Of a DNA stretch of 32,000 bases, positions 1 through 12,986 are shown one piece after another. Source of the stretch: Opitutales bacterium. GTDB lineage: Bacteria; Verrucomicrobiota; Verrucomicrobiia; Opitutales; PNEW01. Made by a program: the position numbers and the translations under genes. The notes beneath the pieces were generated by a model. That model was given only the letters and a program-made list of their open reading frames with translations, was not told where the DNA came from and did no database searches. Position 1 is the stretch's first letter. Every line of letters starts with the position of its first letter. The stretch is taken from positions 1,050,001 through 1,082,000 of the forward strand of contig CBDCNV010000002.1 in assembly GCA_965219535.1 (NCBI GenBank), written 5' to 3'.

Positions 1-1
1 T

Positions 2-535
2 AATACTAAAATTTACATATTAGATGAAAATCTGAAACCACTTCCTGCAGGATTTACCGGTCATCTCTACATTGGTGGTGACGGTCTAGCCCGAGGCTAC
101 CATCATCAACCGGAGCTTACGGATGAGTCCTTTATCGAGCTGGCTATTTCCAGGGGTAAAACTGAACGTTTATATAACACTGGAGACTTAGCGCGCTATA
201 CGATTAACGGATCCATTGAATGTATAGGACGCCGTGATTCTCAAATTAAATTACATGGTTACCGGATCGAGTTGGGCGAAATCGAGACCGTGCTTAATGC
301 CCATCCAGTAGTAAGTAAAGCGGTGTTGCTTTTGCGTGATGATATGACAGGTGGTCCCAGTCTTGCTGCTTATATACAACCGACTGAAAATCACGATAAC
401 ATCATTCCAGAATTGCGTACCTACCTTGGTGAGCGTCTGCCCCAGTACATGCAACCAGCGGCTTACATGGTCGTAGACGAGTTCCCCTATACACCTAACA
501 AGAAGATAGATCGCAAGGCGCTTCCAATCCCATCC
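2..535 (+). other. Adenylation domain, C-terminal portion (core motifs A7-A10)
   Basis: The motifs YNTGD, GRRDSQIKLHGYRIELGEIE, LPQYMQP and NKKIDRKAL are in canonical order and spacing. The GRxDxQxKxxGxRIELGEIE form is typical of NRPS A domains rather than fatty-acyl-AMP ligases. Confidence 0.85.
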
Positions 536-2086
536 CTAAAGCGTTCCGATTTAGGGTCAGAATATGTCGCACCCCAGACGCCGACGGAGAAAATACTCTG
601 TGATATTCTAAACCGGGCGTTTAAGAATGATAAGATTGGCATTCACGACAACTTTTTTGAATTAGGTGGCGATTCTCTCATGGCGGTTGAAATATTATCC
701 AGTATTACCGCTGCCTTTAACCGTGAATTACCGATCGAAGTATTCCTTCGCAATCCCACAGTGGAAAGCCTGGGGCAGTTTTATGATCTTATTCCCGAAA
801 GTATCGATGATCATTCGAACGGGTCTAACGGCAGTTCAAGTTTAGGTAAAGCTTCGGACTTAATTAAGAACAGCTATCTGGACATAGAACAGGTCAATGG
901 GAAGAATGGCGATCGCACCGACCTTCCTCAGGTGGACGCCGTTGCGCTGGCTTATATACCCGATGCTTTCCTTCCGCTCACCGGTCTATCGAAAGATGAA
1001 ATATCACGACAATGGTTTCAACATCAGCCCTTTGTCAGCAATTACTATGAGACACCATTTGGAAGAATAGCCATCGTCATGCTTCCGCGGCTGGGTGCAG
1101 AGCTATACAAGGACCAGGAGCCACTTAGCGACAATATTTTAAGTTCGTTAAAACTAGCAGCTAAAATGGGTGCGAGTACTGTTTCGCTCACTGGGCTCAT
1201 TCCATCGGCTACGGATTATGGACGAAGTATTAAGCACTGGATCAATGGTCATGATAATTTACCGGCGATAACAACGGGTCATGCGACAACAACGGCAACA
1301 ATCGTGAAGACGATTACGGGAATGCTTGAGCAAACCGATCGCGACTTTGCTGATGAAAAAGTAGCCATTGTTGGTCTAGGGTCTATCGGGTATGCAACCT
1401 TGAGGCTCATGCTTGAAGTTATGCCTCATCCGCTTGAGCTTATCCTTTGTGATCTTTATCAGAAATCGGATAGTTTAGAGGAAATTAGAAATGAACTTGT
1501 CGAAAAACTTGGCTTTAATGGATCCATTCGTGTCGTAACCACTCGCGGGCGATTACCCGATGCCATTTATGACGCTTCATTTGTACTCGGCGCGAGCAAT
1601 GTGCCAGGGATCTTAGATATTAAACGGATAAGACCGGGGACTCTCCTCGTCGATGATTCGTTCCCTCCATGTTTCCGTTTATCCGATGCCATTAGGCGCA
1701 TCGAAGAACAACAGGATATTCTTTTTACCACAGGCGGGTTACTTAGGTGTTCGAAGGAAATCAAAGAGACGATTTATTTACCGGATGGAGCGGGTGAATT
1801 ATTTGCCAGCCTGGGTGTTGATAAAGTTCAGCGACTGGCAGGGCGCGATCCACGTGAAATTACTGGTTGTATCCTTTCCAGCTTATTAACCGGGCACGGT
1901 CCAGACATTCAAACCACTATCGGTCCAGTCGAAATCGAAGATTCGCTCGCCCACTATAAACTCCTCGAGAAACTAGAGCTCGAGGCGGCTCGACCGCAGT
2001 GTGAAGGATTCTTTATCGATTCCGAGATAATCGAAAGTTTCAAGGAACGAGATGCTTCCTCGACCACACACGCCGAAACAGTTTGA
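2..2086 (+). CDS. NRPS-like protein, 5'-truncated by the window edge. It contains the C-terminal part of an adenylation domain, a peptidyl-carrier domain, and a C-terminal NAD(P)-binding, acyl-ACP-reductase-like domain.
   Basis: The frame is open from nt 2; the track ORF 272..2086 simply starts at an internal TTG. Translation from nt 2 reads NTKIYILDENLKPLPAGFTGHLYIGGDGLARGY, then YNTGDLARY (A7), GRRDSQIKLHGYRIELGEIE (A8), LPQYMQPAAY (A9) and PNKKIDRKAL (A10). This is followed by DNFFELGGDSLMAVE (carrier LGGxS motif), an S/G/N-rich linker, and ~390 aa containing VAIVGLGSIGYA. Confidence 0.85.
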   Translation, partial: NTKIYILDENLKPLPAGFTGHLYIGGDGLARGYHHQPELTDESFIELAISRGKTERLYNTGDLARYTINGSIECIGRRDSQIKLHGYRIELGEIETVLNAHPVVSKAVLLLRDDMTGGPSLAAYIQPTENHDNIIPELRTYLGERLPQYMQPAAYMVVDEFPYTPNKKIDRKALPIPSLKRSDLGSEYVAPQTPTEKILCDILNRAFKNDKIGIHDNFFELGGDSLMAVEILSSITAAFNRELPIEVFLRNPTVESLGQFYDLIPESIDDHSNGSNGSSSLGKASDLIKNSYLDIEQVNGKNGDRTDLPQVDAVALAYIPDAFLPLTGLSKDEISRQWFQHQPFVSNYYETPFGRIAIVMLPRLGAELYKDQEPLSDNILSSLKLAAKMGASTVSLTGLIPSATDYGRSIKHWINGHDNLPAITTGHATTTATIVKTITGMLEQTDRDFADEKVAIVGLGSIGYATLRLMLEVMPHPLELILCDLYQKSDSLEEIRNELVEKLGFNGSIRVVTTRGRLPDAIYDASFVLGASNVPGILDIKRIRPGTLLVDDSFPPCFRLSDAIRRIEEQQDILFTTGGLLRCSKEIKETIYLPDGAGELFASLGVDKVQRLAGRDPREITGCILSSLLTGHGPDIQTTIGPVEIEDSLAHYKLLEKLELEAARPQCEGFFIDSEIIESFKERDASSTTHAETV
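569..781 (+). other. Carrier (PCP/thiolation) domain; predicted phosphopantetheine Ser codon at 674-676
   Basis: The sequence is YVAPQTPTEKILCDILNRAFKNDKIGIHDNFFELGGDSLMAVEILSSITAAFNRELPIEVFLRNPTVESLGQF. It has the GGDSL signature in a four-helix-length segment directly after A10. Confidence 0.85.
923..2083 (+). other. Non-SDR reductase-like domain. It has a Rossmann GxGxxG motif (VAIVGLGSIGYA, nt 1361-1396) and a candidate nucleophile Cys (codon 1868-1870). By recalled sequence it resembles acyl-ACP reductase (AAR).
   Basis: Three segments resemble the remembered Synechococcus AAR sequence, in the same order. FGRIAIVMLPRLGAELY...LAAKMGASTVSLTGLIPSA resembles HGRYIESCFLPEML...AQKHGIDISALGGFTSI. 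ITTGHATTTATIV...EKVAIVGLGSIGYA resembles FTTGNTHTAYVI...ATVAVVGATGDIGSA. RDPREITGCILSSLL resembles RPERQMFACFAEAMLL, which carries the catalytic Cys. The SDR-type TGxTGFLG motif is absent. Confidence 0.5.
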
Positions 2087-2111
2087 GCCCTCTCGTTTAG
2101 GATATTAAAGC

Positions 2112-3233
2112 GTGGAGTCTTCATTGCTGCATCCGTTGGGCGGAAGCAATCTGACAACCTTGCTTCGCGCATTCTGCCGCCCCCAACCTCTTAGTTGGAG
2201 AAAGCTGCCTATGGGGTTAATCACAACCGCCTCCGTTCTGGCGCGATTTCCTTTTTATCAATTCGAACGACTTATTCACTCACGTGCAATCAATGATATT
2301 GAATTGCCTTCTGACCCCATTTTTATCATCGGACACTGGCGCAGCGGCACGACACACCTGCATAATCTCTTTAGTCAGGATCCACAGTTCGGATCGATCA
2401 ATTTCCTTCAAACTGCATTGCCATGGGATTTTATTGGACAGGTTAGATTGTCAAAAAAAATTCTCAGTCGTTCACTGCCAGAAAATCGTGGGATGGATAA
2501 TGTTAAGTTGACAATTGACACCCCGCAGGAAGAGGAAATGGCCTTGGGTAATATGGGTCCGTTGTGTTATTACTACTGTTATTATTTTCCCCAAGAAATC
2601 GAAGATCACTTCGATCGCGCAGTGTTACTTGAAGGAATTTCAGCTGACGACTTAAAGCGGTTTGAAAATAATTTTCGCTATCTATTAAAAAAACTGACGC
2701 TGTTTCATGGGTTAAATAAAAGACTGCTTTTAAAAAATCCCGCCAACACAGGTCGAATACGCTGGTTGCGGCAGCTTTACCCCAATGCAAAATTTATTCA
2801 TATCCACCGCAATTCCTATTCCGTATTTTCCTCAACCCTAAAACATTATCAAAGAACGATGTCTGCATTTGCCTGGCAGTCTTATAAGGGTATTGATTTT
2901 GAGAAGATAACACTGCGTCACTACCGGCTCCTCATGCAGCGATACTTCGATGATCGCGCTTCTATTCCCCCGGAAAATTTTTATGAATTATCTTTAGACG
3001 CGGTAGAAAATGATGCGATCAGGGAGATTGATAAAATCTATCAACATTTTTCGTTACCCAATCGGGTAAGCGCTCTCGAGTTCATTGATTCCTACAATAA
3101 AAAGCTGAGTAATTACCGAAAGAATAGTTATTCCCTGACCCAAAGCCAGATTTCAAATGTTCTTAAACACTGGGACTTTGTGTTAAAAGAATATGGCTAT
3201 GATGTGCCGGATGAAATAGAGGTGAAGGATTGA
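2112..3233 (+). CDS. PAPS-dependent sulfotransferase (Sulfotransfer_1/3-like)
   Basis: It has a 5'-PSB loop IIGHWRSGTTHLHNLF and a 3'-PB-like segment IHIHRNSYSVFSS. It lies 25 nt downstream of the NRPS-like gene on the same strand. The start is uncertain: GTG at 2112 or ATG at 2211. Confidence 0.8.
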   Translation: MESSLLHPLGGSNLTTLLRAFCRPQPLSWRKLPMGLITTASVLARFPFYQFERLIHSRAINDIELPSDPIFIIGHWRSGTTHLHNLFSQDPQFGSINFLQTALPWDFIGQVRLSKKILSRSLPENRGMDNVKLTIDTPQEEEMALGNMGPLCYYYCYYFPQEIEDHFDRAVLLEGISADDLKRFENNFRYLLKKLTLFHGLNKRLLLKNPANTGRIRWLRQLYPNAKFIHIHRNSYSVFSSTLKHYQRTMSAFAWQSYKGIDFEKITLRHYRLLMQRYFDDRASIPPENFYELSLDAVENDAIREIDKIYQHFSLPNRVSALEFIDSYNKKLSNYRKNSYSLTQSQISNVLKHWDFVLKEYGYDVPDEIEVKD

Positions 3234-3236
3234 AAA

Positions 3237-5219
3237 TTACAATCTTCCCTCAATGAGTTTATCGACCACTTGCGGATCGGCCAGTGTCGTCGTGTCACCT
3301 ATAGCTTCAGGTGCGTCTTCTGCAATCTTTCTCAGTATGCGCCGCATGATTTTACCCGAGCGCGTTTTCGGTAAAGCACTGGCGAATTGGAGTTTATCAG
3401 GAGTAGCAATGGGCCCGATCTCGGTGCGTACATGTTTTACCAGTTCCTGTCTCAACGCGTCGTTTTCTTCAATACCCTCGACGAGTGTGACAAAAGCATA
3501 GAGCGACTGCCCTTTGATATCATGGGGCATAGGAGCAACCGCCGCTTCTGCCACTTTGGCATGACTGACTAATGCGCTTTCGACTTCAGCTGTTCCTATG
3601 CGATGGCCTGAGACATTGACTACATCGTCTACGCGCCCCATGAGCCAATAATCGCCGTCTTCGTCGATACGGCATCCATCACCCGTAAAGTATTGATCCT
3701 TATACGTGTTAAAGTAGGTATCGATAAAACGTTCATGATCACCCCACATAGTGCGCATCATCCCGGGCCAGGGTTTCTTAATACAGAGTTTTCCCCCTTC
3801 ATTAGTATTACACTCACTGTTATCATCGCGCAGAATGATGGGTTCTACGCCAAAAAACGGTTGTGAGGCGCTACCGGGTTTTAAAACGTGAGCCCCGGGG
3901 AATGGAGTAAGCAAGTGACCTCCTGTTTCCGTTTGCCACCAGGTATCAACAATCGGACAACGTTCGTGACCGATATGCCGATAATACCACATCCAGGCTT
4001 CGGGGTTTATCGGTTCTCCAACTGTTCCGAGCACGCGAATCGTATTCAAATCATATTCTGCCGGCCAATTATCGCCTTGAGCAATCAAGGCGCGGATCGC
4101 GGTTGGTGCTGTATAAAATACGGTTACCTTGTACTTTTCACACACTTGCCAAAAGCGGCCGGGATCAGGGTAAGTCGGAACACCTTCAAACATGAGACTG
4201 GTCGATCCATTGGCGAGGGGGCCGTAGACAATGTAACTGTGTCCAGTCACCCAACCAATATCTGCCGTGCACCAGTAAATATCGTCATCATGGATGTCGA
4301 AAATATATTTGTAGGTAAGGCTGGTATGTAAAAGGTATCCAGCAGTGGTATGGACAACGCCCTTCGGTTTACCCGTAGAACCGGAAGTGTAGAGGATGAA
4401 TAGCATGTCCTCAGCGTTCAATGGCTCAGCGGGACAGTCCGCTTCAACTTTGTCCATTTCCTCGTGATACCAGAGGTCGCGCCCCGCGAGGACATTACAC
4501 GGTTCCTCATTGCGTTTCACCAAAATGACTTTTTCTATCGTGGATGTATTTTCTAACGCTTTGTCCGAGATATCTTTAAGATAAATCAGTTTACCCGAGC
4601 GCAATCCAACATTCGCAGTGATGAGTATTTTACAGTCTGAATCATTTATCCGGTCGGCCAATGAATCCGCGCTGAATCCACCAAAGATAACAGAATGAAT
4701 AGCCCCGATGCGGGCACAGCCAAGCATCACGATTGGCAACTCCAGAATCATTGGCATATAAATCGCAATCCGGTCACCTCTTTTTACTCCCTGAGCTTTA
4801 AGTACGTTGGCAAATTTACAGACTTCTCTATGCAATTCCTCATAAGTGAGCTGTTTAGTTTCTTCATCCGGTTCACCCTGCCAGACCAGTGCTGGCTTAG
4901 TCCGCCGATCTGTCTTTAAGTGGCGATCAAGACAATTCACGCTGACGTTTATTTCTCCGTCTTCAAACCAGGTATGTTCAATTTTTCGTGCCTTCGTATT
5001 CCATTCATACTTGCGAGCGACAGTTGGTTTCTTGAACCAATCCAACGATTCTGCCTGCTCCAACCAGAATCCATCCGAGTCATTTATGGAACGATCATAC
5101 ATCTCGCGATACTTTTGCGCGTTGATATGTGATTTGGCCACGACTTCCTCCGGCGGTGGGAAAGTGCGTTTTTCAGTCATTAAAGAATCGGTAGAAATAA
5201 TTTTATTATTTTCAGGCAT
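3237..5219 (-). CDS. acs: Acetyl-CoA synthetase (AMP-forming)
   Basis: This is a 660-aa ORF. The N-terminus YREMYDRSINDSDGFWLEQAE, the AMP-binding motif YTSGSTGKPKGV, and the segments WWQTETGG and PKTRSGKIMRR are all typical of Acs. Confidence 0.95.
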   Translation of the reverse strand: MPENNKIISTDSLMTEKRTFPPPEEVVAKSHINAQKYREMYDRSINDSDGFWLEQAESLDWFKKPTVARKYEWNTKARKIEHTWFEDGEINVSVNCLDRHLKTDRRTKPALVWQGEPDEETKQLTYEELHREVCKFANVLKAQGVKRGDRIAIYMPMILELPIVMLGCARIGAIHSVIFGGFSADSLADRINDSDCKILITANVGLRSGKLIYLKDISDKALENTSTIEKVILVKRNEEPCNVLAGRDLWYHEEMDKVEADCPAEPLNAEDMLFILYTSGSTGKPKGVVHTTAGYLLHTSLTYKYIFDIHDDDIYWCTADIGWVTGHSYIVYGPLANGSTSLMFEGVPTYPDPGRFWQVCEKYKVTVFYTAPTAIRALIAQGDNWPAEYDLNTIRVLGTVGEPINPEAWMWYYRHIGHERCPIVDTWWQTETGGHLLTPFPGAHVLKPGSASQPFFGVEPIILRDDNSECNTNEGGKLCIKKPWPGMMRTMWGDHERFIDTYFNTYKDQYFTGDGCRIDEDGDYWLMGRVDDVVNVSGHRIGTAEVESALVSHAKVAEAAVAPMPHDIKGQSLYAFVTLVEGIEENDALRQELVKHVRTEIGPIATPDKLQFASALPKTRSGKIMRRILRKIAEDAPEAIGDTTTLADPQVVDKLIEGRL

Positions 5220-5253
5220 GGTCAGCTGCTTTTTAAAGAGGGTTTAAAATTAA

Positions 5254-5283
5254 ATTTTCGTCGTAATTACTATTATCTGTCAA
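5254..5283 (-). promoter_or_regulatory. Candidate sigma-70 promoter for acs (TTGACA-18 nt-GAAAAT)
   Basis: On the minus strand there is a perfect -35 TTGACA (5283-5278), an 18-nt spacer and a GAAAAT hexamer (5259-5254). This lies ~35 nt upstream of the acs ATG. Confidence 0.3.
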
Positions 5284-5297
5284 CAATTCGTACTGCG

Positions 5298-6764
5298 TTA
5301 TAAAAATCGCTGTGGAGAAAAATATTTTTCCGGATAATAATCAGGGCCGTCAATTTTCAGGATCTTAAAGATGACAAATTGCGTCGCGAGGAAAGAGACA
5401 CCAGACCCTGAACCTGCCATACCGCCTACAATATATAAACGCTTGTCATCCTGGAGGCCAATGAGAGGAAATTCATCGGGGGTCATGCCAACCGTCCCGC
5501 TCCATTCATTAGTGACTTGTATATCTTTAATGCTGAAGAACGGTTTTAAAAAGGCGGCCACATATTTGGTTATAAAACGTGAAGGTTGATTACTACCGGC
5601 CTCGTCGTCGGGGACCACCGACATATCAGATCCCAAAAGGATTCCGTCTTTCGTGCGGCTGAAAAACATTTGTGGTGTACTGATGGCCACACCTTGTTGC
5701 ATCGTTCCACCATTACTGTTGCCAAAAGCCGCCTGGGTTTGCCCCGCTTTTAAGATGTTGTGAAATTCTTTAAACAATGAGGGAGTGTGAGATTCTGTGG
5801 CATTAATTACATAACGTGCTTTGATCATCCCGCGATTCGTATGAATTGCATAATGATCTCCTGCATCTTTCACTGCGTTTACTTTAGTGCGGGTATATAA
5901 CTCTACATAAGGCGATTTAAGCGCCAATTGAAACAGGCCCCAGATCCACTTTGCGGGGTGCCAATTGGCAGTGCCTCGCGAGTGCCCGGCATTATTATTG
6001 GTTTTTATTCCCGCCTTCTCCATAGCTTCCTCTTTGGAGATGCTTATCCAGTCGGTAAATCCCGTCTCCTCACCCATCCGCTGAGCTGCTAACGGTTTGT
6101 CTTTGCCCTCATCATCCGTGGTCCAGACCCAACCTTTTTTTACATAGTCACATTCGATCCCCTCATCTTTAATTGACTGTTCAATCATTTGATTGCTTTT
6201 AACCCCGGCGATCACATAGGGACGGGCAAATTCATGAGCATAGGCAACTCTTTTCTCTTTGCTTAAATCGGGGCGCGACTTTTCCAGATTTTTTAAAACC
6301 GTGCTGTGGACGTAGTAATAGTAACGGCCCATAGTCACGACGCCGGCATTACGGCCACCTGAACCGCTCGCCGCCTCATTCATTTCTAGAATGACCATTT
6401 TGTCCTTACCATGCTTCGACCAATGATAGGCGGCTCCTGCACCGGTAAATCCAGCTCCAATAACCACGACTTCAGCACTCTCAGGAATTTTTAAGTCAGT
6501 TGAATCTTTCCAGGGATGATTTTCCAGAGGGTTTTTATCCCTTAACCAGACAGGGGTTCTCGATACCGGGTTCTTAAACTGGACTCGATCTTTTGCATTG
6601 GGAATCGTTCTCCACATAGTCTCAACCGACCATTTAAAAAAGAGCAGCAGCCTTCGCATCAGCTTTTTCCCCGGATACATCGTGTTAATCCAGGTTCTCG
6701 CCGCACGAAATTCATGCCGGCGCATGCTAAGGAGTAATTTTAAGACAAGAAGTAGTCTTTTCAT
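5298..6764 (-). CDS. FAD-dependent oxidoreductase, DAO family (PuuB-like)
   Basis: It has the dinucleotide-binding motif VVVIGAGFTGAGAAYHW followed by ASGSGGRNAGVV, which matches GASGRNGG in PuuB-type enzymes. The first ~50 codons (MKRLLLVLKLLLSMRRHEF...) may not be translated. Alternative ATGs include one at ~6617 (MWRT). Confidence 0.8.
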   Translation of the reverse strand: MKRLLLVLKLLLSMRRHEFRAARTWINTMYPGKKLMRRLLLFFKWSVETMWRTIPNAKDRVQFKNPVSRTPVWLRDKNPLENHPWKDSTDLKIPESAEVVVIGAGFTGAGAAYHWSKHGKDKMVILEMNEAASGSGGRNAGVVTMGRYYYYVHSTVLKNLEKSRPDLSKEKRVAYAHEFARPYVIAGVKSNQMIEQSIKDEGIECDYVKKGWVWTTDDEGKDKPLAAQRMGEETGFTDWISISKEEAMEKAGIKTNNNAGHSRGTANWHPAKWIWGLFQLALKSPYVELYTRTKVNAVKDAGDHYAIHTNRGMIKARYVINATESHTPSLFKEFHNILKAGQTQAAFGNSNGGTMQQGVAISTPQMFFSRTKDGILLGSDMSVVPDDEAGSNQPSRFITKYVAAFLKPFFSIKDIQVTNEWSGTVGMTPDEFPLIGLQDDKRLYIVGGMAGSGSGVSFLATQFVIFKILKIDGPDYYPEKYFSPQRFL

Positions 6765-6959
6765 AAGTCTTTTAGAGATTAAAGAGGTATACTAAATGAC
6801 AAAACAGAAATTTTTGAGTCTACTCCGAACGCCTCTTTCTGAATCAGTTTAATGAATTCAAATTGTGAATTTATTAATGATTCCGCCAATCGGCAATTAG
6901 GCTTCTGCCTGTTAAAGCTTTTAAAGGTGGAGAAAACAGTTGAAAGGTATGCAGTATCC

Positions 6960-6989
6960 TTGTAAACGGCAATAAATAAGAATTATAAT
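6960..6989 (+). promoter_or_regulatory. Candidate sigma-70 promoter for trpS (TTGTAA-18 nt-TATAAT)
   Basis: TTGTAA lies at 6960-6965 and a perfect TATAAT at 6984-6989. This is 24 nt upstream of the trpS ATG and implies a short 5' UTR without an SD. Confidence 0.5.
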
Positions 6990-7012
6990 TCTATTTTTAT
7001 ATTGTAGGCATT

Positions 7013-8020
7013 ATGAGTTCACCCAGTAAACCTGTCGTCCTTTCCTTTATGCGTGCATCCGGGAATTTGCATTTAGGTAATTACCTGGGAGCATTGAAAA
7101 ACTGGATCGCGATGGTCGATGACTATGAGTGTTTTTTTGGAATGGCAGATATGCATGCAATCACCGAGAAGTATACACCCGCAGTTTTGCGTAAAGATAC
7201 GATAAGTATTCTGGCACAGTATATAGCCAGCGGACTTATCGCGGAAAAAAGCCACTTCTTTTTACAATCTCACATCATTGGTCACACTGAATTGGCGTGG
7301 GTGCTCGGGTGCCTTACTCCTTTGGGGCAACTGGAGCGAATGACCCAATTTAAAGAAAAAGCTAAGAAGCAGCGTTCAAATATTAATGCGGGTCTCCTCT
7401 ATTACCCCGTGCTTATGGCTTCTGATATTCTGCTTTATAACGCAGACCAGGTTCCGGTGGGGGAAGATCAGAAGCAGCATGTTGAACTCTGTCGTGATAT
7501 CGCGCAGAAATTTAACAATAATTACTCGGGAACTTTTAAGGTGCCTGATGTTTATATACCGAAAGCAGGGGCCAGGATCATGTCGCTTCAGGAGCCTGAA
7601 AATAAAATGTCTAAGTCAGATGATAATCTCAATGGGACGCTTTTTCTTCTTGATCCACCCAATCTATTGCGGAAAAAAATCATGAGCGCGGTCACCGATT
7701 CAGGAAATGAGATTGCTGCCCGTGAGGATAAACCGGGCATGACCAATCTCCTCAATATTCTCAGTTCAATCACCAATGCTTCTATTGCTGAACTTGAGAA
7801 ACGTTTTTCAGGTAAAGGTTATGCAGAGTTTAAAGATGCGGTAGCGGATGCGGTGATCGCCATTGTAGAGCCGATTCAGGAGAAGTATGCTTCTATTATC
7901 AATGATAAGCCCTATCTAGAAAGCATTATCAAAGAGGGTGCGAATGCCGCGCAAAATCGCGCCAATAAAATGTTAAGTAAAGTTTATCGTAAAGTTGGGT
8001 TTGTGGAGCGAGTCCGTTAG
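7013..8020 (+). CDS. trpS: Tryptophanyl-tRNA synthetase
   Basis: This is a 335-aa ORF. It has a class-I HIGH-type motif (GNLHLGNYLG), a KMSKS motif (NKMSKSDDN) and the TrpRS-typical segment GEDQKQHVEL. Confidence 0.95.
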   Translation: MSSPSKPVVLSFMRASGNLHLGNYLGALKNWIAMVDDYECFFGMADMHAITEKYTPAVLRKDTISILAQYIASGLIAEKSHFFLQSHIIGHTELAWVLGCLTPLGQLERMTQFKEKAKKQRSNINAGLLYYPVLMASDILLYNADQVPVGEDQKQHVELCRDIAQKFNNNYSGTFKVPDVYIPKAGARIMSLQEPENKMSKSDDNLNGTLFLLDPPNLLRKKIMSAVTDSGNEIAAREDKPGMTNLLNILSSITNASIAELEKRFSGKGYAEFKDAVADAVIAIVEPIQEKYASIINDKPYLESIIKEGANAAQNRANKMLSKVYRKVGFVERVR

Positions 8021-8120
8021 AAATTTAATTTACGGCATAACCCGAGAAAAATAAAATACACGACATTTTATTATTGAATTAAATTAACAAAGCTAGTTAA
8101 AATAAAAGCCGAACACCTAT

Positions 8121-9134
8121 ATGACAGAATCTTCGGTGAACGATAATAATCACCTCCGCTTAGTTAAATGGCCTTTCTACGCAGGCGATGGGCTCTTGGT
8201 ATTACTCGCGTTCCTTATAGTTGCGAATTCCGCTAAGCCACTCAGTTCGACTGCGATATCCTGGTGTGTAATTAGTGTTACATTTGGAGCCCTGGTTTTT
8301 GTCGCGCCCTTTATTCTTGAATACTTGAATTCCATTCGACTGGCGAAGAATCAGCTTCAGGAAGCGGTAGATAAGCAATTGCAAGGATTGGATACCATGC
8401 TCCAGGAGTTGGATGCTCTCTCGAGTACGCTGTCTGATCTTGCACAAAAATCAGCGAATTCCACTCAAAAGATGGAACATTTCAGGCCTGAATTGCAGAA
8501 TCAATTAAGGGAATCTCATGCCAGGATCGACAGCCTTCTCGAAAATGCCGAGGGGAAAGTTTCCACCCATGAGTCTTTAAGTGAGGTATTAAATCAACGC
8601 CTGGAATCACTGGAAAATAAAGTTAATGAGCTTGTTTCAATACAGACAGACAAGGCTGTGAGCGAGGTCATTGAGGACGAAAGTGAAAAGGGTGAGGTAG
8701 CGAAATCAGAAGAGAATGATAACGCCCAGAAACAGAATCCAGTAATCGAAGAGGATGCCAGCGCAGATAATACGCTTAATAAGGCGGTTGAGATTCCTGA
8801 CCCGGTAATTGAATTAGAGGACGATGGACAGGATACTGAAGAGGTGAGTAATCTCGTGCCAGAGAACAACAGCTCGATTACTCTTATCGCCCATCTTAAT
8901 CTCGATATTAGCAGCACCCCGTATGTTCGCGGTGAAGGGGCTGGATTAAGTTGGAACGAAGGTGTACCGATGGAATTTATTGAAATCGGAAAATGGGAGT
9001 GGACAGTCGAGAACGCTATAGAATCTACTGCCTGTCGGATTTTTAAAGATGACTCACTCGCTGCCAAGGGAGATGACATTGTGATCGAGGTAGGGGAGCG
9101 AGCTGAAGTCTATCCGGAATTTCCCGAGGAGTAA
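8121..9134 (+). CDS. Uncharacterised membrane-anchored coiled-coil protein with an acidic linker and a beta-rich C-terminal domain
   Basis: It has two hydrophobic helices (GLLVLLAFLIVANSA and WCVISVTFGALVFVAPFILEYL). These are followed by ~110 aa of heptad-like Q/L/E-rich sequence and an E/D-rich low-complexity segment. The C-terminus is ~85 aa: PYVRGEGAGLSWNEGVPMEFIEIGKWEWTV...EVYPEFPEE. No family was recognised. Confidence 0.6.
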   Translation: MTESSVNDNNHLRLVKWPFYAGDGLLVLLAFLIVANSAKPLSSTAISWCVISVTFGALVFVAPFILEYLNSIRLAKNQLQEAVDKQLQGLDTMLQELDALSSTLSDLAQKSANSTQKMEHFRPELQNQLRESHARIDSLLENAEGKVSTHESLSEVLNQRLESLENKVNELVSIQTDKAVSEVIEDESEKGEVAKSEENDNAQKQNPVIEEDASADNTLNKAVEIPDPVIELEDDGQDTEEVSNLVPENNSSITLIAHLNLDISSTPYVRGEGAGLSWNEGVPMEFIEIGKWEWTVENAIESTACRIFKDDSLAAKGDDIVIEVGERAEVYPEFPEE

Positions 9135-9202
9135 ATCCTGACTGCGGGTGCTGCTTTGGCTGATCGCAGGATAACAGAACTCCTGTTTACACTTTTCGCG
9201 CT

Positions 9203-9954
9203 CTAGGTATTTTCTTTAGCGGAGATATTATCAGGATCATATATAAAACCGACTCCGTGGATGGTGCGGAAAGCATCTAAACTATGATCATTACGTGCAA
9301 AAGATTCGCGTATTTTTACGATATACTGATCCAGCGATCGACTGCGTACGTCGGCATGAATTCCCCAGACCGCATGGATCAAACTGCGACGGGTAAGAAC
9401 AGTTCCTTCATTTGAAGCTAAGTAAGTGAGAATCCCCAGTTCTTTACGACCAATCTTTTCAGTATTCCCATTTGGAAATGCGATTTCCAAGCGGATAGGA
9501 TTTACATCTACACCGCAAAATTTAAAAACTTCCTGTGAGAGGGCGGCGTTCTTGGTTATGTGATAATCGTGAGCCGTTTCAGCGCGGCGAAGAACGGCGT
9601 GAATGCGAGCGATGAGTTCAGGAAAACTGAATGGTTTAGTGATATAATCATCACCACCCATATCTAATCCTTTCACCCGGTGGACTTCGGAATCACTGCC
9701 GGTTAGAAAAATGACCGGAACTTGAATGTTGTTCTTTTTGAGATCCTCAAGAAGAGTAAATCCGCTGGTGTCAGGAAGGTTTATATCGAGGAGAAGGAGG
9801 TTTGCAAAATTTCTTTTAAGAACCTCAATACATTAGTAGAACGATGATAGACCTGCGTCATCATCCCTCCCGCTTCAAGCTGCTCGGAAATCAAAGTAGC
9901 GAGTTCTTTCTCATCTTCAACGATGAGGATGAGTGGTTTTGGATTAGTGGCCAT
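9203..9954 (-). pseudogene. OmpR/PhoB-family response regulator, disrupted by one frame change (or affected by an assembly indel)
   Basis: The receiver N-terminus MATNPKPLILIVEDEKELATLISEQLEAGGMMTQVYHRSTNVLRFLK is in one frame, running from ATG 9954 to a stop at 9781-9783. The rest is in the -1 frame, open from 9832 down to 9203. It reads RNFANLLLLDINLPDTSGFTLLEDLKKNNIQVPVIFLTGSDSEVHRVKGLDMGGDDYITKPF and continues into a winged-helix domain (LTRRSLIHAVWG...RSLDQYIVKIR...RTIHGVGFIY). The total is 752 nt, and one added nt gives a 250-aa protein. Confidence 0.8.
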
Positions 9955-10155
9955 GACAATCGCGTTAATTCCGCATCTGATCTATAGGTAATTTTCCTTA
10001 ATCATCCCCCAGAATTATTATGACATTATCCTAGAGATATATAAAAATACTCCTATATTTACAATTTTTTTTTCAATATTTTGTAAAAATTCGGAAATCA
10101 GGGAGCTGAGAATAAGCTTGCGCGAATTGAGACCAAGCGTCATCTACTGCATATC

Positions 10156-11040
10156 GTGTCAGAAAATAAATCATTAATCATGCTGGGCCTGCCTAAAGGG
10201 AGCATGGAAGAGGCTACAATTAAGCTGTTTTCCAAAGCAGGTTGGAATATACAGCAGCGCGCTCGCTCGTACAAACCGCTCATCGATGATCCAGAGCTCG
10301 ATGGCCGATTTGTTCGCGCCCAGGAGGTCAGCCGTTATGTCGAGCAAGGATTTTTTGACGCCGGTTTGACCGGACATGATTGGATATTAGAAAACAAATC
10401 GGACGTCGTTGAAGTCTGTAGCCTGGTCTACAGCCGAAACTCAAATGTAAAGTCGCGCTACGTTCTCGCGGTACCGGAAACATCACCGATTAAGAAGGTT
10501 GAAGATTTACAGGGTAAACGCATCGCAACCGAGGTTGTCAATCTCACCGAACAATACCTGAAAGACCAGGGTATCGAGGCAGTTGTAGAATTTTCCTGGG
10601 GTGCCACCGAGGTGAAAGTTCCAGACCTTGTTGATGCTATTGTTGATATTACCGAAACCGGGAGTTCTCTGATCGCAAATAATCTGAGAATCATCGATAC
10701 CCTCTTTTGGACAGATATTAAATTTATAGCCAACAAGATTAGTTGGAATGACACGGATAAACGTCAGAAGATTGAAAATATTGCCTTGCTTCTTCAGAGC
10801 GCGCTTGAAGCGAAAAATAAGGTAGGTCTAAAACTTAACGTGCCGAAGCAAAAATCGGAATTAATTATCAAGGAACTTCCTTCGCTGCGAAATCCAACCG
10901 TCTCTCAGCTCAGTAAGTCAGATTGGGTTGCGATCGAAACAGTGCTTGATGAATCCGTTGTTCGGGAGATTATACCCCTGCTAAAATCGCACGGAGCAGA
11001 AGGGATCATCGAATACCCGCTGAATAAAGTGGTATTCTAA
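10156..11040 (+). CDS. hisG: ATP phosphoribosyltransferase, long form with a C-terminal regulatory domain
   Basis: It has [55 protein letters not shown] and a HisG_C-like tail. The start is either GTG 10156 or, more likely, ATG 10180 (MLGLPKG). Confidence 0.9.
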
Positions 11041-11056
11041 GCTAAGCGGTCATTTT

Positions 11057-11074
11057 AAGACACCGAAGACACCG
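11057..11074. repeat. Perfect tandem duplication of a 9-mer (AAGACACCG x2)
   Basis: Positions 11057-11065 and 11066-11074 are identical. The repeat lies 17 nt after the hisG stop. Confidence 0.9.
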
Positions 11075-11222
11075 TATAACTGATGGTGACACGTGATAAA
11101 ATATTCACTTGGTTCCAGCGCCCGGGCACAATTAATGCTACTTTTAGACTTGCACCCATAAATGTATGTATGCCAGTATCTCCGCTTCATTTCATAAATG
11201 GAGTAGACTGACGTCTATTTCA

Positions 11223-11252
11223 CTGACAATTAAACATATAGAAATATATAAA
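11223..11252 (+). promoter_or_regulatory. Candidate sigma-70 promoter for rpsA (CTGACA-18 nt-TATAAA)
   Basis: CTGACA lies at 11223-11228 and TATAAA at 11247-11252. It would give a ~70-nt leader that contains the hairpin at 11274-11304. Confidence 0.4.
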
Positions 11253-11273
11253 AATCATTTTTAACCCCTAATA

Positions 11274-11304
11274 CAACCGGAGGATCAAAGCAGATCCTCG
11301 GTTG
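11274..11304 (+). promoter_or_regulatory. Stable stem-loop in the rpsA 5' leader (12 bp, one bulged G, 6-nt loop AAAGCA)
   Basis: CAACCGGAGGATC (11274-11286) pairs with GATCCTCGGTTG (11293-11304), and G11279 is bulged. The 5' arm contains GGAGGA. The hairpin ends 23 nt before the ATG, and no T-tract follows it. Confidence 0.55.
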
Positions 11305-11327
11305 AATTAATAACCGCATAAAAGATT

Positions 11328-12986
11328 ATGAGTTCCTCCATAATGGAAGAACTACTGGCTGAGAGCCAGTTTGAAAAGCTTAAGGAAGGCGCCATTATTC
11401 CCGGCACGATTACTGAAATCAGGGATAATGAAGTGGTCATTGACATCGGTGCCAAAGCCGAAGGAACGATATCCGCCTCAGAGTTTGTCGATGTTGGAGA
11501 ACTCCAAATAGGTTCTCAGATTGAAGTTTACGTCGAGAAACTTGAGGATCGTGATGGTAATCCAATTCTTTCTTACGACAAAGCAGAGCAAAAGAAAAAT
11601 TGGGAGAATATTCTCTCTAAGTGTGCAGAGGGGACTGTAGTGTCCGGTCGAGTCAGGAGCAAAGTGAAAGGTGGCCTGATCGTAAATATCGGCGTTGATT
11701 CTTTCCTGCCCGCCTCTCAGATCGATATTCAGCCACCTAAAAATCTCGATCAATACGTTGGTCAAACTTACGACTTTAAAGTTCTTAAAATTAACCAGGA
11801 ACGCCGCAATATTGTAGTTTCACGCCGCGAACTCATAGAAGAGCAGCGTGTGCATAAGCGTCGACAGCTTCTTGAAAGTGTAAAACCCGGAGATACTCGA
11901 GAGGGTGTTGTTAAGAATATCACGGACTACGGCGCATTCATTGATCTGGACGGACTGGATGGACTTCTCCACATAACCGATATGAGTTGGGGCCGCATTT
12001 CTCACCCGAGCGAGATGCTCAAGATTGGCGAAGAGGTGAAGGTCATGATAATTGAAGTCGACCGTGATCGAGAACGTGTCTCTCTTGGATTAAAACAAAC
12101 CACGTCCAATCCTTGGGAAGGTATTGAGAATCGCTATCCGCTCGATTCTAAAGTAAATGGCAAGATAGTAAATCTCGTGCCTTACGGTGCATTCGTTGAA
12201 CTTGAAGAAGGGGTAGAGGGCTTGGTACATGTCACGGAACTTTCCTGGACAAGACGAATCAATAAACCGAACGAGGTCCTTAAAGTAGGGGACGTAATTG
12301 ATTCTGTCGTCATTGGAATCCAGAAGGAAGAACAGAAAATTTCGTTAAGTGTGCGCCAGCTTGAACCCAATCCATGGGATATGGTCAGGCATAACTACCC
12401 CGCTGGAGCGCGCGTTCGTGGCAAGGTTCGCAATCTTACAAACTACGGTGCTTTTGTTGAACTCGAAGAGGGTATTGATGGCATGATCCATGTCTCCGAT
12501 ATGTCCTGGACGCGCAAGGTGAATCATCCCAGTGAATTTGTGAAAAAAGGGGATGAGATTGATGCTATTGTTTTAGACGTCGACTCAAATAATCAGCGTA
12601 TTTCGCTGGGTATAAAGCAACTTTCTTCGGATCCCTGGAGCGAGATCGATCAACTGTTCAAAATTGGTGATGTAGTAAAAGGTAAAGTAACAAAGATTAC
12701 CACTTATGGTGCTTTCATCGATCTCGGAAATGGCATTGATGGTTTGGTACATATTAGCCAGGTTAGCGAGGATCATATTGAGAAGATTAAAGATGTTCTC
12801 GAGACTGATCAGGAGGTTACCGCTCGCGTTATTAAGATCGATATCGAGGAAAGAAGAATCGGCCTGAGCATAAAAGCGGCTAATTATGATTCTGAACAAC
12901 TCGCTGCTGAAACCGCTGCATACGAAAATATAAAGAGCGACGATTTGACGAGCCTGGGTGATATTCTCGATGAAGCTACTAAATAG
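11328..12986 (+). CDS. rpsA: 30S ribosomal protein S1 (six S1 domains)
   Basis: This is a 552-aa ORF with repeated S1/OB motifs (G.V..I..YGAF+DL.G+DGL+H+S..SW) occurring six times. Confidence 0.95.
   Translation: MSSSIMEELLAESQFEKLKEGAIIPGTITEIRDNEVVIDIGAKAEGTISASEFVDVGELQIGSQIEVYVEKLEDRDGNPILSYDKAEQKKNWENILSKCAEGTVVSGRVRSKVKGGLIVNIGVDSFLPASQIDIQPPKNLDQYVGQTYDFKVLKINQERRNIVVSRRELIEEQRVHKRRQLLESVKPGDTREGVVKNITDYGAFIDLDGLDGLLHITDMSWGRISHPSEMLKIGEEVKVMIIEVDRDRERVSLGLKQTTSNPWEGIENRYPLDSKVNGKIVNLVPYGAFVELEEGVEGLVHVTELSWTRRINKPNEVLKVGDVIDSVVIGIQKEEQKISLSVRQLEPNPWDMVRHNYPAGARVRGKVRNLTNYGAFVELEEGIDGMIHVSDMSWTRKVNHPSEFVKKGDEIDAIVLDVDSNNQRISLGIKQLSSDPWSEIDQLFKIGDVVKGKVTKITTYGAFIDLGNGIDGLVHISQVSEDHIEKIKDVLETDQEVTARVIKIDIEERRIGLSIKAANYDSEQLAAETAAYENIKSDDLTSLGDILDEATK

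What the first reader, a model, noticed from the sequence alone, without database searches (positions are those of the whole stretch)
2..2086. NRPS-like A-PCP protein ends in an AAR-like (non-SDR) thioester reductase domain instead of a canonical R domain
**What the sequence shows.** The canonical A7-A10 motifs and a GGDSL carrier domain are followed by ~390 aa.
- That region lacks the SDR terminal-reductase signature (TGxTGFLG / YxxxK).
- It has a shikimate-DH/HemA-type Rossmann motif, VAIVGLGSIGYA.
- About 165 residues later it has a Cys in REITGCILSSLL.

**Comparison with AAR.** From memory of the cyanobacterial acyl-ACP reductase (AAR) sequence, three blocks line up in the same order.
- LPRLGAELY...GASTVSLTGLIPSA matches CFLPEML...GIDISALGGFTSI.
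- TTGHATTTA...VAIVGLGSIG matches TTGNTHTAY...VAVVGATGDIG.
- ITGCILSSLL matches FACFAEAMLL, which carries the acyl-accepting Cys.

**Inference.** AAR takes an acyl group from a carrier protein onto its Cys and reduces it to an aldehyde with NADPH. A covalent fusion to an A-PCP loading module would make a self-contained carboxylic-acid-to-aldehyde reductase built on a different fold from known CAR/NRPS R domains. I do not recall this architecture being characterised. The gene is cut by the window edge, so any N-terminal domains and upstream cluster partners are unseen.
Basis: partly seen in the sequence, partly recalled or inferred. Interest (0 to 1): 0.75.

Follow-up and report, generated by a model that had tools for sequence, protein, structure and literature searches.

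The report
Terminal amidation domain on a PKS-NRPS
The odd AAR-like domain after the carrier domain is real. It belongs to the "terminal amidation domain" family, described and crystallised in 2024-25, and here it ends a 4026-residue polyketide/peptide synthetase from a verrucomicrobium, so it is a new member of a known kind rather than a new architecture.

Summary
ORF 2-2086 encodes the end of an adenylation domain, a PCP, a linker and a ~385-aa non-SDR domain. That domain carries a GxGxxG motif and a Cys at nt 1868-1870.

**The AAR likeness is real.**
- Foldseek to AAR: TM 0.6-0.7.
- hhalign to AAR: E 7.7e-7.

**The domain is already known.** It is a clear member of the terminal amidation domain (TAD) family.
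- It is about 50% identical to the CarI TAD, with phmmer E 6e-91.
- Foldseek to PDB 9E4S gives TM 0.9.
- Every TAD hallmark is present: TTG, Asp484, the DDSxP loop, and Cys623 (invariant in 114/114 homologs).
- The family is large, with 630 50%-identity clusters at E<=1e-30.

**The protein is not a self-contained acid reductase.** In 97%-identical contigs the gene encodes KS-AT-DH-cMT-ER-KR-ACP-C-A(Gly)-PCP-TAD. A sulfotransferase gene follows, and it is conserved within this clade.

**Function.** Known TAD pathways yield primary amides, and TAD binds NAD(H), not NADP(H). The most likely reaction is therefore transfer of acyl-glycyl from the PCP to Cys623, followed by release as a primary amide. 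TAD activity has never been reconstituted, so reductive release to an aldehyde is disfavoured but not excluded.

**Verdict.** New member of a known kind; moderate-to-low interest.

The parts
2..517 (+). C-terminal part of the NRPS adenylation domain (motifs A6-A10). It is cut by the window edge. The A10 Lys lies in PNKKIDRK at nt 494-517.
   Evidence: Pfam finds AMP-binding at aa 1-34 and AMP-binding_C at aa 93-168. NCBIfam finds the amino-acid adenylation domain at 1.8e-41. The full A domain in L001 (97.4% nt identity) has the specificity code DILQLGLIW+K, obtained by alignment to verified GrsA residues 234-337.
593..781 (+). Peptidyl carrier protein domain. GGDSL is at nt 665-679 and the phosphopantetheine-accepting Ser225 at nt 674-676.
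   Evidence: Pfam PP-binding, E 5.8e-15, aa 198-260. Motif position.
782..916 (+). PCP-TAD linker, Ser/Gly/Asn-rich (SNGSNGSSS). Its last ~15 residues may already form the first strand of the TAD.
   Evidence: Sequence. The AF2 model has lower pLDDT (72-75) over the first 20 modelled residues and a strand at model residues 3-7. The CarI PCP-TAD linker is 26 residues.
917..2086 (+). Terminal amidation domain (TAD; AAR-like two-lobe NAD(H)-binding domain), including the stop codon at 2084-2086. Hallmark residues: TTG at nt 1271-1279; GxGxxG (GLGSIG) at 1373-1390; Asp484 at 1451-1453; the D551-D552-S553-F554-P555 loop at 1652-1666; Cys623 at 1868-1870.
   Evidence: phmmer to CarI TAD chains 9e4s/9e4x gives E 6e-91 over the full length, and the family profile gives 3e-162. 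The AF2 model has pLDDT 91.4. Foldseek gives 9e4s_A at TM 0.91/0.88, E 2e-49, and AAR 6jzu at TM 0.61/0.71, E 9e-16. Invariant residues were counted in 114 homologs. The TAD HMM matches ORF aa 306-689.
2211..3233 (+). Sulfotransferase (Sulfotransfer_3, with WRSGTT as the PAPS 5'-phosphosulfate-binding loop). It lies just downstream of the TAD gene and is a likely tailoring enzyme of the same cluster. The mechanical ORF starts at GTG 2112; the start called elsewhere is ATG 2211.
   Evidence: Pfam PF13469, E 5.4e-32. The exact 340-aa product is on record next to the 4026-aa PKS-NRPS. It is conserved right after the TAD gene in L001-L003 and in the 64%-identical cluster L029, where the further neighbours differ. 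It is absent from other TAD loci, L030-L032. The best PDB relative is 2zq5 at 1.2e-8.

Best explanation
nt 917-2083 encode a terminal amidation domain (TAD). This is the AAR-related, NAD(H)-binding, Cys-dependent chain-release domain found at the C-terminus of many terminal NRPS modules.

Here it ends a single 4026-aa hybrid synthase, KS-AT-DH-cMT-ER-KR-ACP-C-A(Gly)-PCP-TAD, from an Opitutales (Verrucomicrobiota) bacterium.

**Proposed course**
1. The A domain loads glycine on Ser225 of the PCP. This is inferred from the specificity code.
2. The C domain couples the reduced, methylated polyketide acyl chain to it. This is inferred from the domain order.
3. The acyl-glycyl-phosphopantetheine arm enters the NAD tunnel of the TAD and the acyl-glycyl group moves to Cys623. 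This is inferred by homology: shown for AAR, and supported for CarI by cross-linking and a dephospho-CoA-Cys disulfide structure.
4. The enzyme thioester is released with a nitrogen nucleophile as a primary amide, an N-acyl-glycinamide, in an NAD(H)-dependent but probably redox-neutral way. This rests only on the products of characterised TAD pathways. The nitrogen source and the role of NAD are unknown.
5. The adjacent sulfotransferase probably modifies the product. This is inferred from conserved synteny.

Membership of the TAD family is near certain (~0.95). Amide-forming release is only the best current guess (~0.5).
For: **Family membership**
- CarI TAD chains are the top sequence match: E 6e-91 for the single sequence and 3e-162 for the profile.
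- They are also the top fold match: TM ~0.9, E 2e-49.
- All published TAD hallmarks are present and conserved in 114 homologs: T425 and G426, GxGxxG, Asp484 (114/114), D551, D552 (102 Asp, 11 Tyr), S553 (114/114), P555, Cys623 (114/114).
- The position right after the PCP of a terminal module matches the family's usual context.

**Function**
- Carmabin A, vatiamides E/F and hectoramide B come from TAD-terminated pathways and are primary amides.
[quoted passage not shown] Its Cys2238 is reached by the PCP phosphopantetheine arm.
- The D-D-S loop residues are TAD-specific. They are G-G in AAR and V-A in PigE, which argues for chemistry beyond simple reduction.

**Context**
- Full architecture.
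- No other megasynthase gene lies upstream.
- Gly code.
- Sulfotransferase synteny.
Against: - No TAD has ever shown activity in vitro. CarI and VatR TADs released nothing with NAD(H), metals, ammonia or any of the 20 amino acids.
- The amide assignment rests on three pathways whose TADs are 85-95% identical to each other. That is effectively one data point, and this domain is only about 45-50% identical to them.
- The fold and the Cys/NAD geometry are those of a thioester reductase.
- A fully reducing PKS module plus a glycinamide terminus offers no obvious hydroxyl for the conserved sulfotransferase.
- Reading the code as Gly relies on my memory of the Stachelhaus table. It was not found in the searchable literature.
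Confidence: 0.6

Rival explanations
1. In this clade the domain acts as a true AAR/TamH-type thioester reductase. Acyl-glycyl moves to Cys623 and is reduced by NADH to N-acyl-aminoacetaldehyde, possibly on to N-acyl-ethanolamine. The adjacent sulfotransferase then O-sulfates the alcohol.
For: - The fold is AAR-like and the Cys is equivalent.
- Bona fide AAR-family reductases that take acyl groups from A-ACP proteins exist and use NADH: TamA/TamH and PigE.
- The TAD profile links to PigE at 3.9e-10.
- CarI TAD binds NADH slightly better than NAD+.
- The authors themselves consider a reduction step possible.
- A clade-specific sulfotransferase would have a ready substrate in a primary alcohol.
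- This clade forms its own subgroup with a DDSFPP loop.
Against: - Known TAD pathway products are amides, not aldehydes or alcohols.
- All TAD-specific invariants that AAR and PigE lack (Asp552, Ser553) are retained here.
- No reduction was detected with CarI or VatR TAD plus NADH.
- The sulfotransferase argument is circumstantial. An iterative PKS or a hydroxylated starter could supply a hydroxyl.
Confidence: 0.17
2. The domain releases the chain by other chemistry. Options are hydrolysis, transfer to a non-ammonia nucleophile such as an amine or amino acid supplied by a partner, or a mainly non-catalytic or regulatory role with release done elsewhere.
For: - Activity has not been reconstituted despite broad screening.
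- No consistently co-occurring nitrogen-donor gene was found.
- Some family members are fused to, or sit next to, a thioesterase (P0011/L032).
- Stand-alone members exist outside BGCs.
Against: - Cys, the NAD-binding residues and the D-D-S loop are strictly conserved across 114 homologs. This indicates a conserved NAD-linked catalytic function.
- No TE or other release domain exists in this 4026-aa protein or its neighbours.
Confidence: 0.2
3. The domain is a canonical or degenerate SDR-type NRPS reductase (R) domain, or an unrelated Rossmann enzyme such as ornithine cyclodeaminase/SbnB or shikimate dehydrogenase, fused by chance.
For: There is a weak NCBIfam hit to the SbnB family (E 0.0093). 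Generic Rossmann dehydrogenases appear far down the Foldseek list.
Against: - No Pfam NAD_binding_4 or Epimerase hit.
- TM is 0.9 to TAD and 0.6-0.7 to AAR, against less than 0.5 for all other folds.
- E to CarI TAD is 6e-91.
Confidence: 0.01

Closest known systems
Terminal amidation domain (TAD) of CarI (carmabin), VatR (vatiamide) and HcaD (hectoramide). PDB 9E4S/9E4U/9E4X/9E50/9E56; Rankin et al., bioRxiv 10.1101/2024.10.28.620694
   Same: - Same position, after the PCP of the last NRPS module.
- Same ~400-aa two-lobe fold (TM ~0.9).
- Same hallmarks: TTG, GxGxxG, NAD-selecting Asp, D-D-S-x-P loop and invariant Cys.
   Different: - Only about 45-50% identical. It comes from Opitutales (Verrucomicrobiota), not marine cyanobacteria.
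- It sits in its own small subgroup: a DDSFPP loop with Phe where CarI has Gly2172. It retains Asp where most verrucomicrobial relatives have Tyr.
- The terminal residue is predicted to be Gly rather than N-methylated Tyr or Val.
- The host protein is a one-polypeptide KS-first PKS-NRPS with a conserved downstream sulfotransferase.
Cyanobacterial acyl-ACP reductase AAR (PDB 6JZQ/6JZU/6JZY; TIGR04058)
   Same: - Same overall fold (Foldseek E ~1e-15, TM 0.6-0.7).
- Homologous TTG and GxGxxG blocks (hhalign E 7.7e-7).
- A Cys at the equivalent site, which accepts the acyl group from a phosphopantetheine carrier.
   Different: - AAR is a free-standing protein that uses NADPH, makes fatty aldehydes and hands them to ADO.
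- The window domain scores 18.5 bits against the TIGR04058 cutoff of 449.7.
- It has Asp484, which predicts NAD(H).
- It has D-D-S where AAR has D-G-G.
- It has extra N-terminal elements and is fused to an NRPS.
AAR-type thioester reductase domains of PigE (prodigiosin) and TamH (tambjamine)
   Same: - AAR-superfamily domains used in secondary metabolism.
- TamH takes its acyl group from an A-ACP di-domain (TamA) and is NADH-specific.
- PigE's N-terminal domain is the nearest non-TAD sequence relative: NCBIfam 1e-13, and the TAD profile against 4ppm gives 3.9e-10.
   Different: - Those domains are fused to a PLP transaminase, not to a PCP.
- They demonstrably give aldehydes that are then transaminated.
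- They lack the TAD D-D-S loop (PigE has D-V-A).
SDR-type terminal reductase (R) domains of NRPSs and carboxylic acid reductases (CAR, Lys2, MxcG; Pfam NAD_binding_4)
   Same: Same place in the assembly line (after the last carrier domain), and nicotinamide cofactor dependence.
   Different: - An unrelated fold and mechanism. SDR R domains reduce the carrier-bound thioester directly, without a Cys acyl-enzyme.
- No NAD_binding_4 hit here.
Glycine-dependent amidative release (myxothiazol MtaG-type C-A(Gly)-MOX-PCP-TE)
   Same: A terminal Gly-activating NRPS module associated with formation of a terminal amide.
   Different: - That route needs an embedded monooxygenase and a TE, and it sacrifices the glycine. 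Neither domain is present here.
- TAD-preceding A domains in general have diverse codes, so Gly is not a family feature.

Membership tests
Terminal amidation domain (TAD) family | Full-length sequence homology to the CarI/VatR/HcaD terminal domain | tested here: met
   phmmer E 6e-91 over query residues 1-377 of the 387-aa query. The family profile against 9e4s gives E 3e-162.
Terminal amidation domain (TAD) family | Two-lobe fold: macrodomain-like N-terminal lobe plus Rossmann C-terminal lobe, superposable on the CarI TAD crystal structure | tested here: met
   The AF2 model has pLDDT 91.4 and pTM 0.92. Foldseek to 9e4s_A gives TM 0.91/0.88, rmsd 2.2 A and E 2e-49. All ten top hits are CarI TAD chains.
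Terminal amidation domain (TAD) family | Invariant cysteine equivalent to CarI Cys2238 | tested here: met
   Cys623 (nt 1868-1870) aligns to the Cys of CarI IMGCAFSA. It is Cys in 114/114 homologs.
Terminal amidation domain (TAD) family | Invariant Thr-Thr-Gly motif at the lobe junction (CarI 2042-2044) | tested here: met
   T424-T425-G426. T425 is conserved in 112/114 and G426 in 113/114. The spacing to GxGxxG is identical to CarI.
Terminal amidation domain (TAD) family | GxGxxG plus the Asp that selects NAD(H) over NADP(H) (CarI Asp2102) | tested here: met
   G458-L-G460-S-I-G463, with Asp484 exactly 26 residues after the first Gly, as in CarI. Asp is present in 114/114. Cofactor preference itself is not testable here.
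Terminal amidation domain (TAD) family | Asp-Asp-Ser-Gly-cisPro loop next to the nicotinamide (CarI 2169-2173) | tested here: met
   The loop is D551-D552-S553-F554-P555. D551, S553 and P555 are essentially invariant. D552 is Asp in 102 homologs and Tyr in 11. The fourth position (Gly in CarI, Phe here) is variable in the family (A/G/Y/F/D/S), so the Gly is not defining.
Terminal amidation domain (TAD) family | Located C-terminal to the carrier domain of the last module of an NRPS or PKS-NRPS | tested here: met
   PCP at aa 198-260, then the TAD, then the stop. The full protein is KS-AT-DH-cMT-ER-KR-ACP-C-A-PCP-TAD.
Terminal amidation domain (TAD) family | The pathway product carries a C-terminal primary amide; the domain catalyses amidative release | not testable with these tools
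   The product of this cluster is unknown. Even for CarI and VatR the activity was not reconstituted.
Cyanobacterial acyl-ACP reductase (AAR, TIGR04058) | Sequence score above the curated family cutoff | tested here: not met
   18.5 bits against a cutoff of 449.7, E 0.001, partial match only. The TAD profile against 6jzu gives E 0.079.
Cyanobacterial acyl-ACP reductase (AAR, TIGR04058) | Shared fold and active-site Cys (superfamily-level relationship) | tested here: met
   Foldseek to 6jzu/6jzy/6jzq gives E 9e-16 to 5e-14, TM 0.58-0.71. hhalign gives probability 91.7% and E 7.7e-7. Cys equivalence goes through CarI Cys2238 and AAR Cys294.
Cyanobacterial acyl-ACP reductase (AAR, TIGR04058) | Free-standing enzyme, NADPH-dependent, paired with aldehyde-deformylating oxygenase | tested here: not met
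   The domain is fused to an NRPS. Asp484 predicts NAD(H). No ferritin-like ADO gene was found among the annotated window ORFs.
SDR-type NRPS/CAR terminal reductase (R) domain (Pfam NAD_binding_4) | Match to NAD_binding_4/Epimerase with the TGxTGFLG and YxxxK motifs | tested here: not met
   No such Pfam hit in aa 261-694 even at E<=0.1. The fold search places it elsewhere.

The most novel reading that the evidence does not exclude
In this Opitutales subgroup the TAD-like domain is not an amidating enzyme but a genuine NADH-dependent, Cys623-mediated thioester reductase covalently attached to its PCP.

- It would release N-acyl-aminoacetaldehyde or N-acyl-ethanolamine.
- The clade-specific sulfotransferase would convert that into a sulfated lipid.
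- This would be the first proven cis-acting AAR-fold reductive release domain in an assembly line.
- It would show that "TAD" family members differ in chemistry.
Probability: 0.15. Interest if true: 0.6.

Novelty: new member of a known kind. Interest (0 to 1): 0.35.

Why it matters
**The architecture is not new.** It is an uncharacterised verrucomicrobial member of a family whose structure is known but whose chemistry is still unsolved.

**Its practical value lies in the substrate.**
- The published attempts to reconstitute TAD activity were limited by lack of authentic substrates, which were complex N-methylated peptidyl chains.
- This member is predicted to act on a simple acyl-glycyl thioester.
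- Such a substrate is easy to make as an N-acyl-glycyl-CoA and to load with Sfp.
- The whole pathway is one synthase gene plus one sulfotransferase gene, so heterologous expression is realistic.
- It could therefore help settle how terminal amides are made, or whether some TADs are reductases.

**Use in annotation.** Pfam has no model for this domain.

Tried and rejected
1. **Upstream gene overlap.** An ATGA overlap at L001:5-8 suggested an upstream megasynthase gene.
   - Rejected. Contigs L033 and L034 show ~770 bp without a sizeable ORF, then a divergent AcrB-type transporter.
2. **Sulfotransferase look-up.** An exact look-up from the GTG start at nt 2112 found nothing. Using ATG 2211 worked.
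3. **Literature searches.** Searches for the PDB codes 9E4S and its siblings returned nothing. The paper was found through AAR/NRPS keywords. The entry titles, together with residue spacing, tie the entries to CarI.
4. **Stachelhaus string.** A search for DILQLGLIWK in the literature library returned nothing. Reading the code as Gly therefore rests on memory, although its extraction is computed.
5. **Is glycine a general feature of TAD-terminated modules?** This would hint at a Gly-cleaving route to amides.
   - Rejected. Codes before TADs in ~80 representatives are diverse.
6. **Does the sulfotransferase resemble the ACP-substrate sulfotransferase of curacin CurM?**
   - Not supported. The only PDB relatives are 2zq5 and 2z6v, deposited as "putative uncharacterized protein".
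7. **Are Acs and the DAO-family oxidoreductase (3237-6764) part of the cluster?**
   - Rejected. They are absent from the 64%-identical cluster L029, whose only shared neighbour is the sulfotransferase.
8. **Do the KS-related metagenome loci L036-L100 also end in a TAD?**
   - Could not be tested. The 10-kb flank stops before the terminus.
9. **Direct sequence link of the TAD profile to AAR.** It is only marginal (E 0.079). Profile-profile and fold comparison were needed.


Full report
**1. What is in the sequence**

The window's first ORF is open from nt 2 to the stop at 2084-2086. It contains:
- Adenylation motifs A6-A10 at nt 59-517. Pfam finds AMP-binding and AMP-binding_C.
- A PP-binding domain at aa 198-260 (E 5.8e-15), with GGDSL at nt 665-679.
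- A Ser/Gly/Asn-rich linker.
- About 390 further residues that match no Pfam family. In particular there is no match to the SDR reductase families NAD_binding_4 or Epimerase.

VAIVGLGSIGYA lies at nt 1361-1396.

**2. Is it AAR-like?**

Yes, at superfamily level.
- NCBIfam gives a sub-threshold partial hit to the acyl-ACP reductase model TIGR04058: E 0.001, 18.5 bits against a cutoff of 449.7.
- PigE's N-terminal domain and the C-terminal domain of TamH are AAR homologs. They reduce thioesters to aldehydes (PMC8341465; PMC9594044).
- I checked my recalled AAR sequence against the PDB. It is identical to 6jzu_A and also hits PigE at 4e-17.
- A 42-sequence profile of the window domain's family (A1) aligns to AAR by hhalign with probability 91.7% and E 7.7e-7. 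TTGH pairs with TTGN, GLGSIG with GATGDIG, and VDDSFP with IDGGYP.
- An AlphaFold2 model built from A1 has pLDDT 91.4 and pTM 0.92.
- That model finds AAR chains at Foldseek E 9e-16 to 5e-14, TM 0.58-0.71. Generic amino-acid, shikimate and formate dehydrogenases come far behind, at TM below 0.5.

**3. What it really is**

The best matches by far are PDB 9E4S, 9E4U, 9E4X, 9E50 and 9E56.
- phmmer gives E 6e-91 over the whole domain, and the profile gives 3e-162.
- Foldseek gives TM ~0.9, rmsd 2.1-2.7 A and E 2e-49.
- The entries are titled "TAD from Carmabin Biosynthetic Pathway" and were released 2025-02-26.

[quoted passage not shown] It describes:
- A ~400-aa domain at the C-terminus of the last NRPS module of the carmabin (CarI), vatiamide (VatR) and hectoramide (HcaD) pathways. 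The products of these pathways are primary amides.
- A structure with a macrodomain-like N-lobe and a Rossmann C-lobe, resembling AAR.
- NAD(H) binding, but no NADP(H) or CoA binding, because of Asp2102.
- An invariant Cys2238, 4 A from nicotinamide C4 and spatially equivalent to AAR Cys294.
- An invariant TTG motif and a D-D-S-G-cisPro loop.
- Cross-linking and a dephospho-CoA disulfide structure showing that the PCP arm reaches Cys2238 through the NAD tunnel.
- No detectable product release with NAD(H), metals, ammonia or any amino acid.
- 757 RefSeq homologs across bacterial phyla, mostly at NRPS C-termini.

**4. Membership test**

Aligned to CarI and to 113 homologs, the window domain has every hallmark:

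| Feature | Window residue(s) | Conservation among 114 sequences |
|---|---|---|
| TTG motif | T424-T425-G426 | T425 112, G426 113 |
| GxGxxG | G458-x-G460-x-x-G463 | 114, 112, 113 |
| NAD-selecting Asp | Asp484, 26 residues after the first Gly as in CarI | 114 |
| Loop | D551-D552-S553-F554-P555 | D551 113; D552 102 Asp, 11 Tyr; S553 114; P555 113 |
| Catalytic Cys | Cys623 | 114 |

- The one departure from CarI is Phe554 in place of Gly2172. That position is variable in the family (A, G, Y, F, D, S), so it is not a defining feature.
- The paper notes that a mostly verrucomicrobial cluster has Tyr instead of Asp2170.
- The window protein is verrucomicrobial but keeps Asp. It shares "SFPP" with those Tyr-type relatives.
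- It therefore forms a small separate subgroup with P0001 and P0002.
- An exhaustive profile search finds 1671 representatives at E<=1e-3 and 630 at E<=1e-30. Most match at the extreme C-terminus of 1000-4900-aa proteins. The architecture is common.

**5. Context beyond the window edge**

- The window is 97.4% identical over nt 1-12088 to an Opitutales MAG chromosome, OY829953.1 (locus L001).
- There the gene encodes 4026 aa: KS-AT-DH-cMT-ER-KR-ACP-C-A-PCP-TAD.
- Independent gene calls on ENA contig ctg834844 give the same 4026-aa product.
- Metagenome contigs at 98-99% identity (L033, L034) show no further PKS or NRPS gene upstream. There is a ~770-bp gap, then a divergent AcrB-family transporter.
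- So the A-PCP pair is the last module of a KS-first hybrid synthase that includes a condensation domain. It is not a stand-alone acid-activating reductase.
- Aligning the L001 A domain to GrsA residues 234-337 gives the specificity code D-I-L-Q-L-G-L-I-W, plus the A10 Lys. The GrsA fragment was verified against 1amu.
- From my memory of the Stachelhaus table this is the canonical glycine code. The string was not found in the searchable literature.
- Across ~80 other TAD-terminated proteins the preceding A-domain codes are diverse. Glycine is a feature of this clade, not of the family.

**6. The neighbour**

- A Sulfotransfer_3 gene (nt 2211-3233; E 5.4e-32, with a WRSGTT PAPS loop) follows the stop codon.
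- It holds the same position in L001-L003 and in a cluster whose TAD is only 64% identical (L029). In L029 all further neighbours differ.
- Other TAD loci lack it.
- It is therefore probably a tailoring enzyme of this cluster.
- The rest of the window is housekeeping: Acs, a DAO-family oxidoreductase, TrpRS, HisG, ribosomal protein S1, sigma-70, TrpE, Amt, GlgC, DinB, ProRS, RecJ, SecDF and YajC.

**7. How it most likely works**

What the sequence, homology or published work shows:
- The domain order.
- The carrier Ser.
- An NAD-type binding site with Asp484.
- The invariant Cys623 in a CarI-like fold.

What is inferred:
- Gly is loaded on the PCP.
- The polyketide acyl chain is condensed onto it.
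- The acyl-glycyl unit passes to Cys623, as in AAR. For CarI this is supported by cross-linking.
- The unit is released as a primary amide.

Reasons for favouring the amide:
- It is what known TAD pathways produce.
- The D-D-S residues next to the nicotinamide are absent from the proven reductases: AAR has D-G-G and PigE has D-V-A.

My estimates:
- About 0.95 for TAD membership.
- About 0.5 for amidative release.
- The remainder for other or unknown chemistry.

The reductive reading gains a little here. A fully reducing PKS module plus a glycinamide terminus leaves no obvious hydroxyl for the conserved sulfotransferase, whereas an N-acyl-ethanolamine would provide one. This is circumstantial: an iterative PKS programme or a hydroxylated starter could also supply a hydroxyl.

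**8. Verdict**

In effect it rediscovered a family published in late 2024.
- The claims of novelty, of a self-contained acid-to-aldehyde enzyme and of NADPH use do not hold.
- An AAR-type reductase acting on an A-ACP-loaded acyl chain was also already demonstrated for TamA/TamH.
- This is a new, uncharacterised member of a known kind.
- Its main value is practical. It offers a simple acyl-glycyl substrate and a two-gene cluster for working out what TADs actually do.

Noticed in passing
window 2112-3233 (+); also L001:12111-13232, L003:12113-13234, L029:11528-12553: A Sulfotransfer_3 gene sits immediately after the TAD-terminated synthase gene. It is conserved there even in a cluster whose TAD is only 64% identical and whose other neighbours differ. 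It is absent from three unrelated TAD loci. This suggests a sulfated product specific to this Opitutales clade.
   Followed up: partly
L001:5-12085; L033:9229-10000 and L033:6145-9228 (-): The full synthase starts directly with a KS and has no loading module. Its domain order, KS-AT-DH-cMT-ER-KR-ACP-C-A-PCP-X, resembles fungal highly reducing PKS-NRPS hybrids. Upstream there is only a ~770-bp ORF-free gap and a divergent AcrB/RND transporter. Whether the PKS is iterative, or what primes it, is unknown.
   Followed up: partly
L002:6-12085 (PNEW01000019.1): In this 91%-identical relative the synthase reading frame is split into three ORFs: 6-1667, 1674-8192 and 8168-12085. These are either frameshifts from assembly errors or a decaying gene.
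   Followed up: no
window 9203-9953 (-): The OmpR-type response regulator is frameshifted near codon 49 relative to the intact 250-aa gene in L001 and L101. Only the Trans_reg_C part remains as a 157-aa ORF. Contig L102 shows the same split, so it may be a real strain feature or a recurrent sequencing error.
   Followed up: partly
L032:231-2462 (protein P0011): This family member is a thioesterase-TAD fusion encoded just upstream of a separate C-A-PCP gene. It is an unusual arrangement in which two candidate release enzymes are joined.
   Followed up: no
proteins P0026, P0032/P0036, P0068: Other TAD contexts appear: a TubC_N docking domain plus TAD (a stand-alone, docking-type TAD), PilZ plus PCP plus TAD, and KR-ACP-TAD (a PKS terminus rather than an NRPS terminus).
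   Followed up: no
protein P0075: A 463-aa TAD homolog (39% identity) comes from a eukaryotic transcriptome collection (EukProt), whereas the TAD paper found no eukaryotic members. This may be bacterial contamination.
   Followed up: no
alignment (P0003-P0010, P0045, P0054, P0062): The relatives with Tyr in place of Asp552 also co-vary at other active-site motifs (TTGD-ATR instead of TTGH-ATT). Several of them also have LCDP/F in place of LCDL/V. This hints at a functionally distinct subfamily.
   Followed up: no
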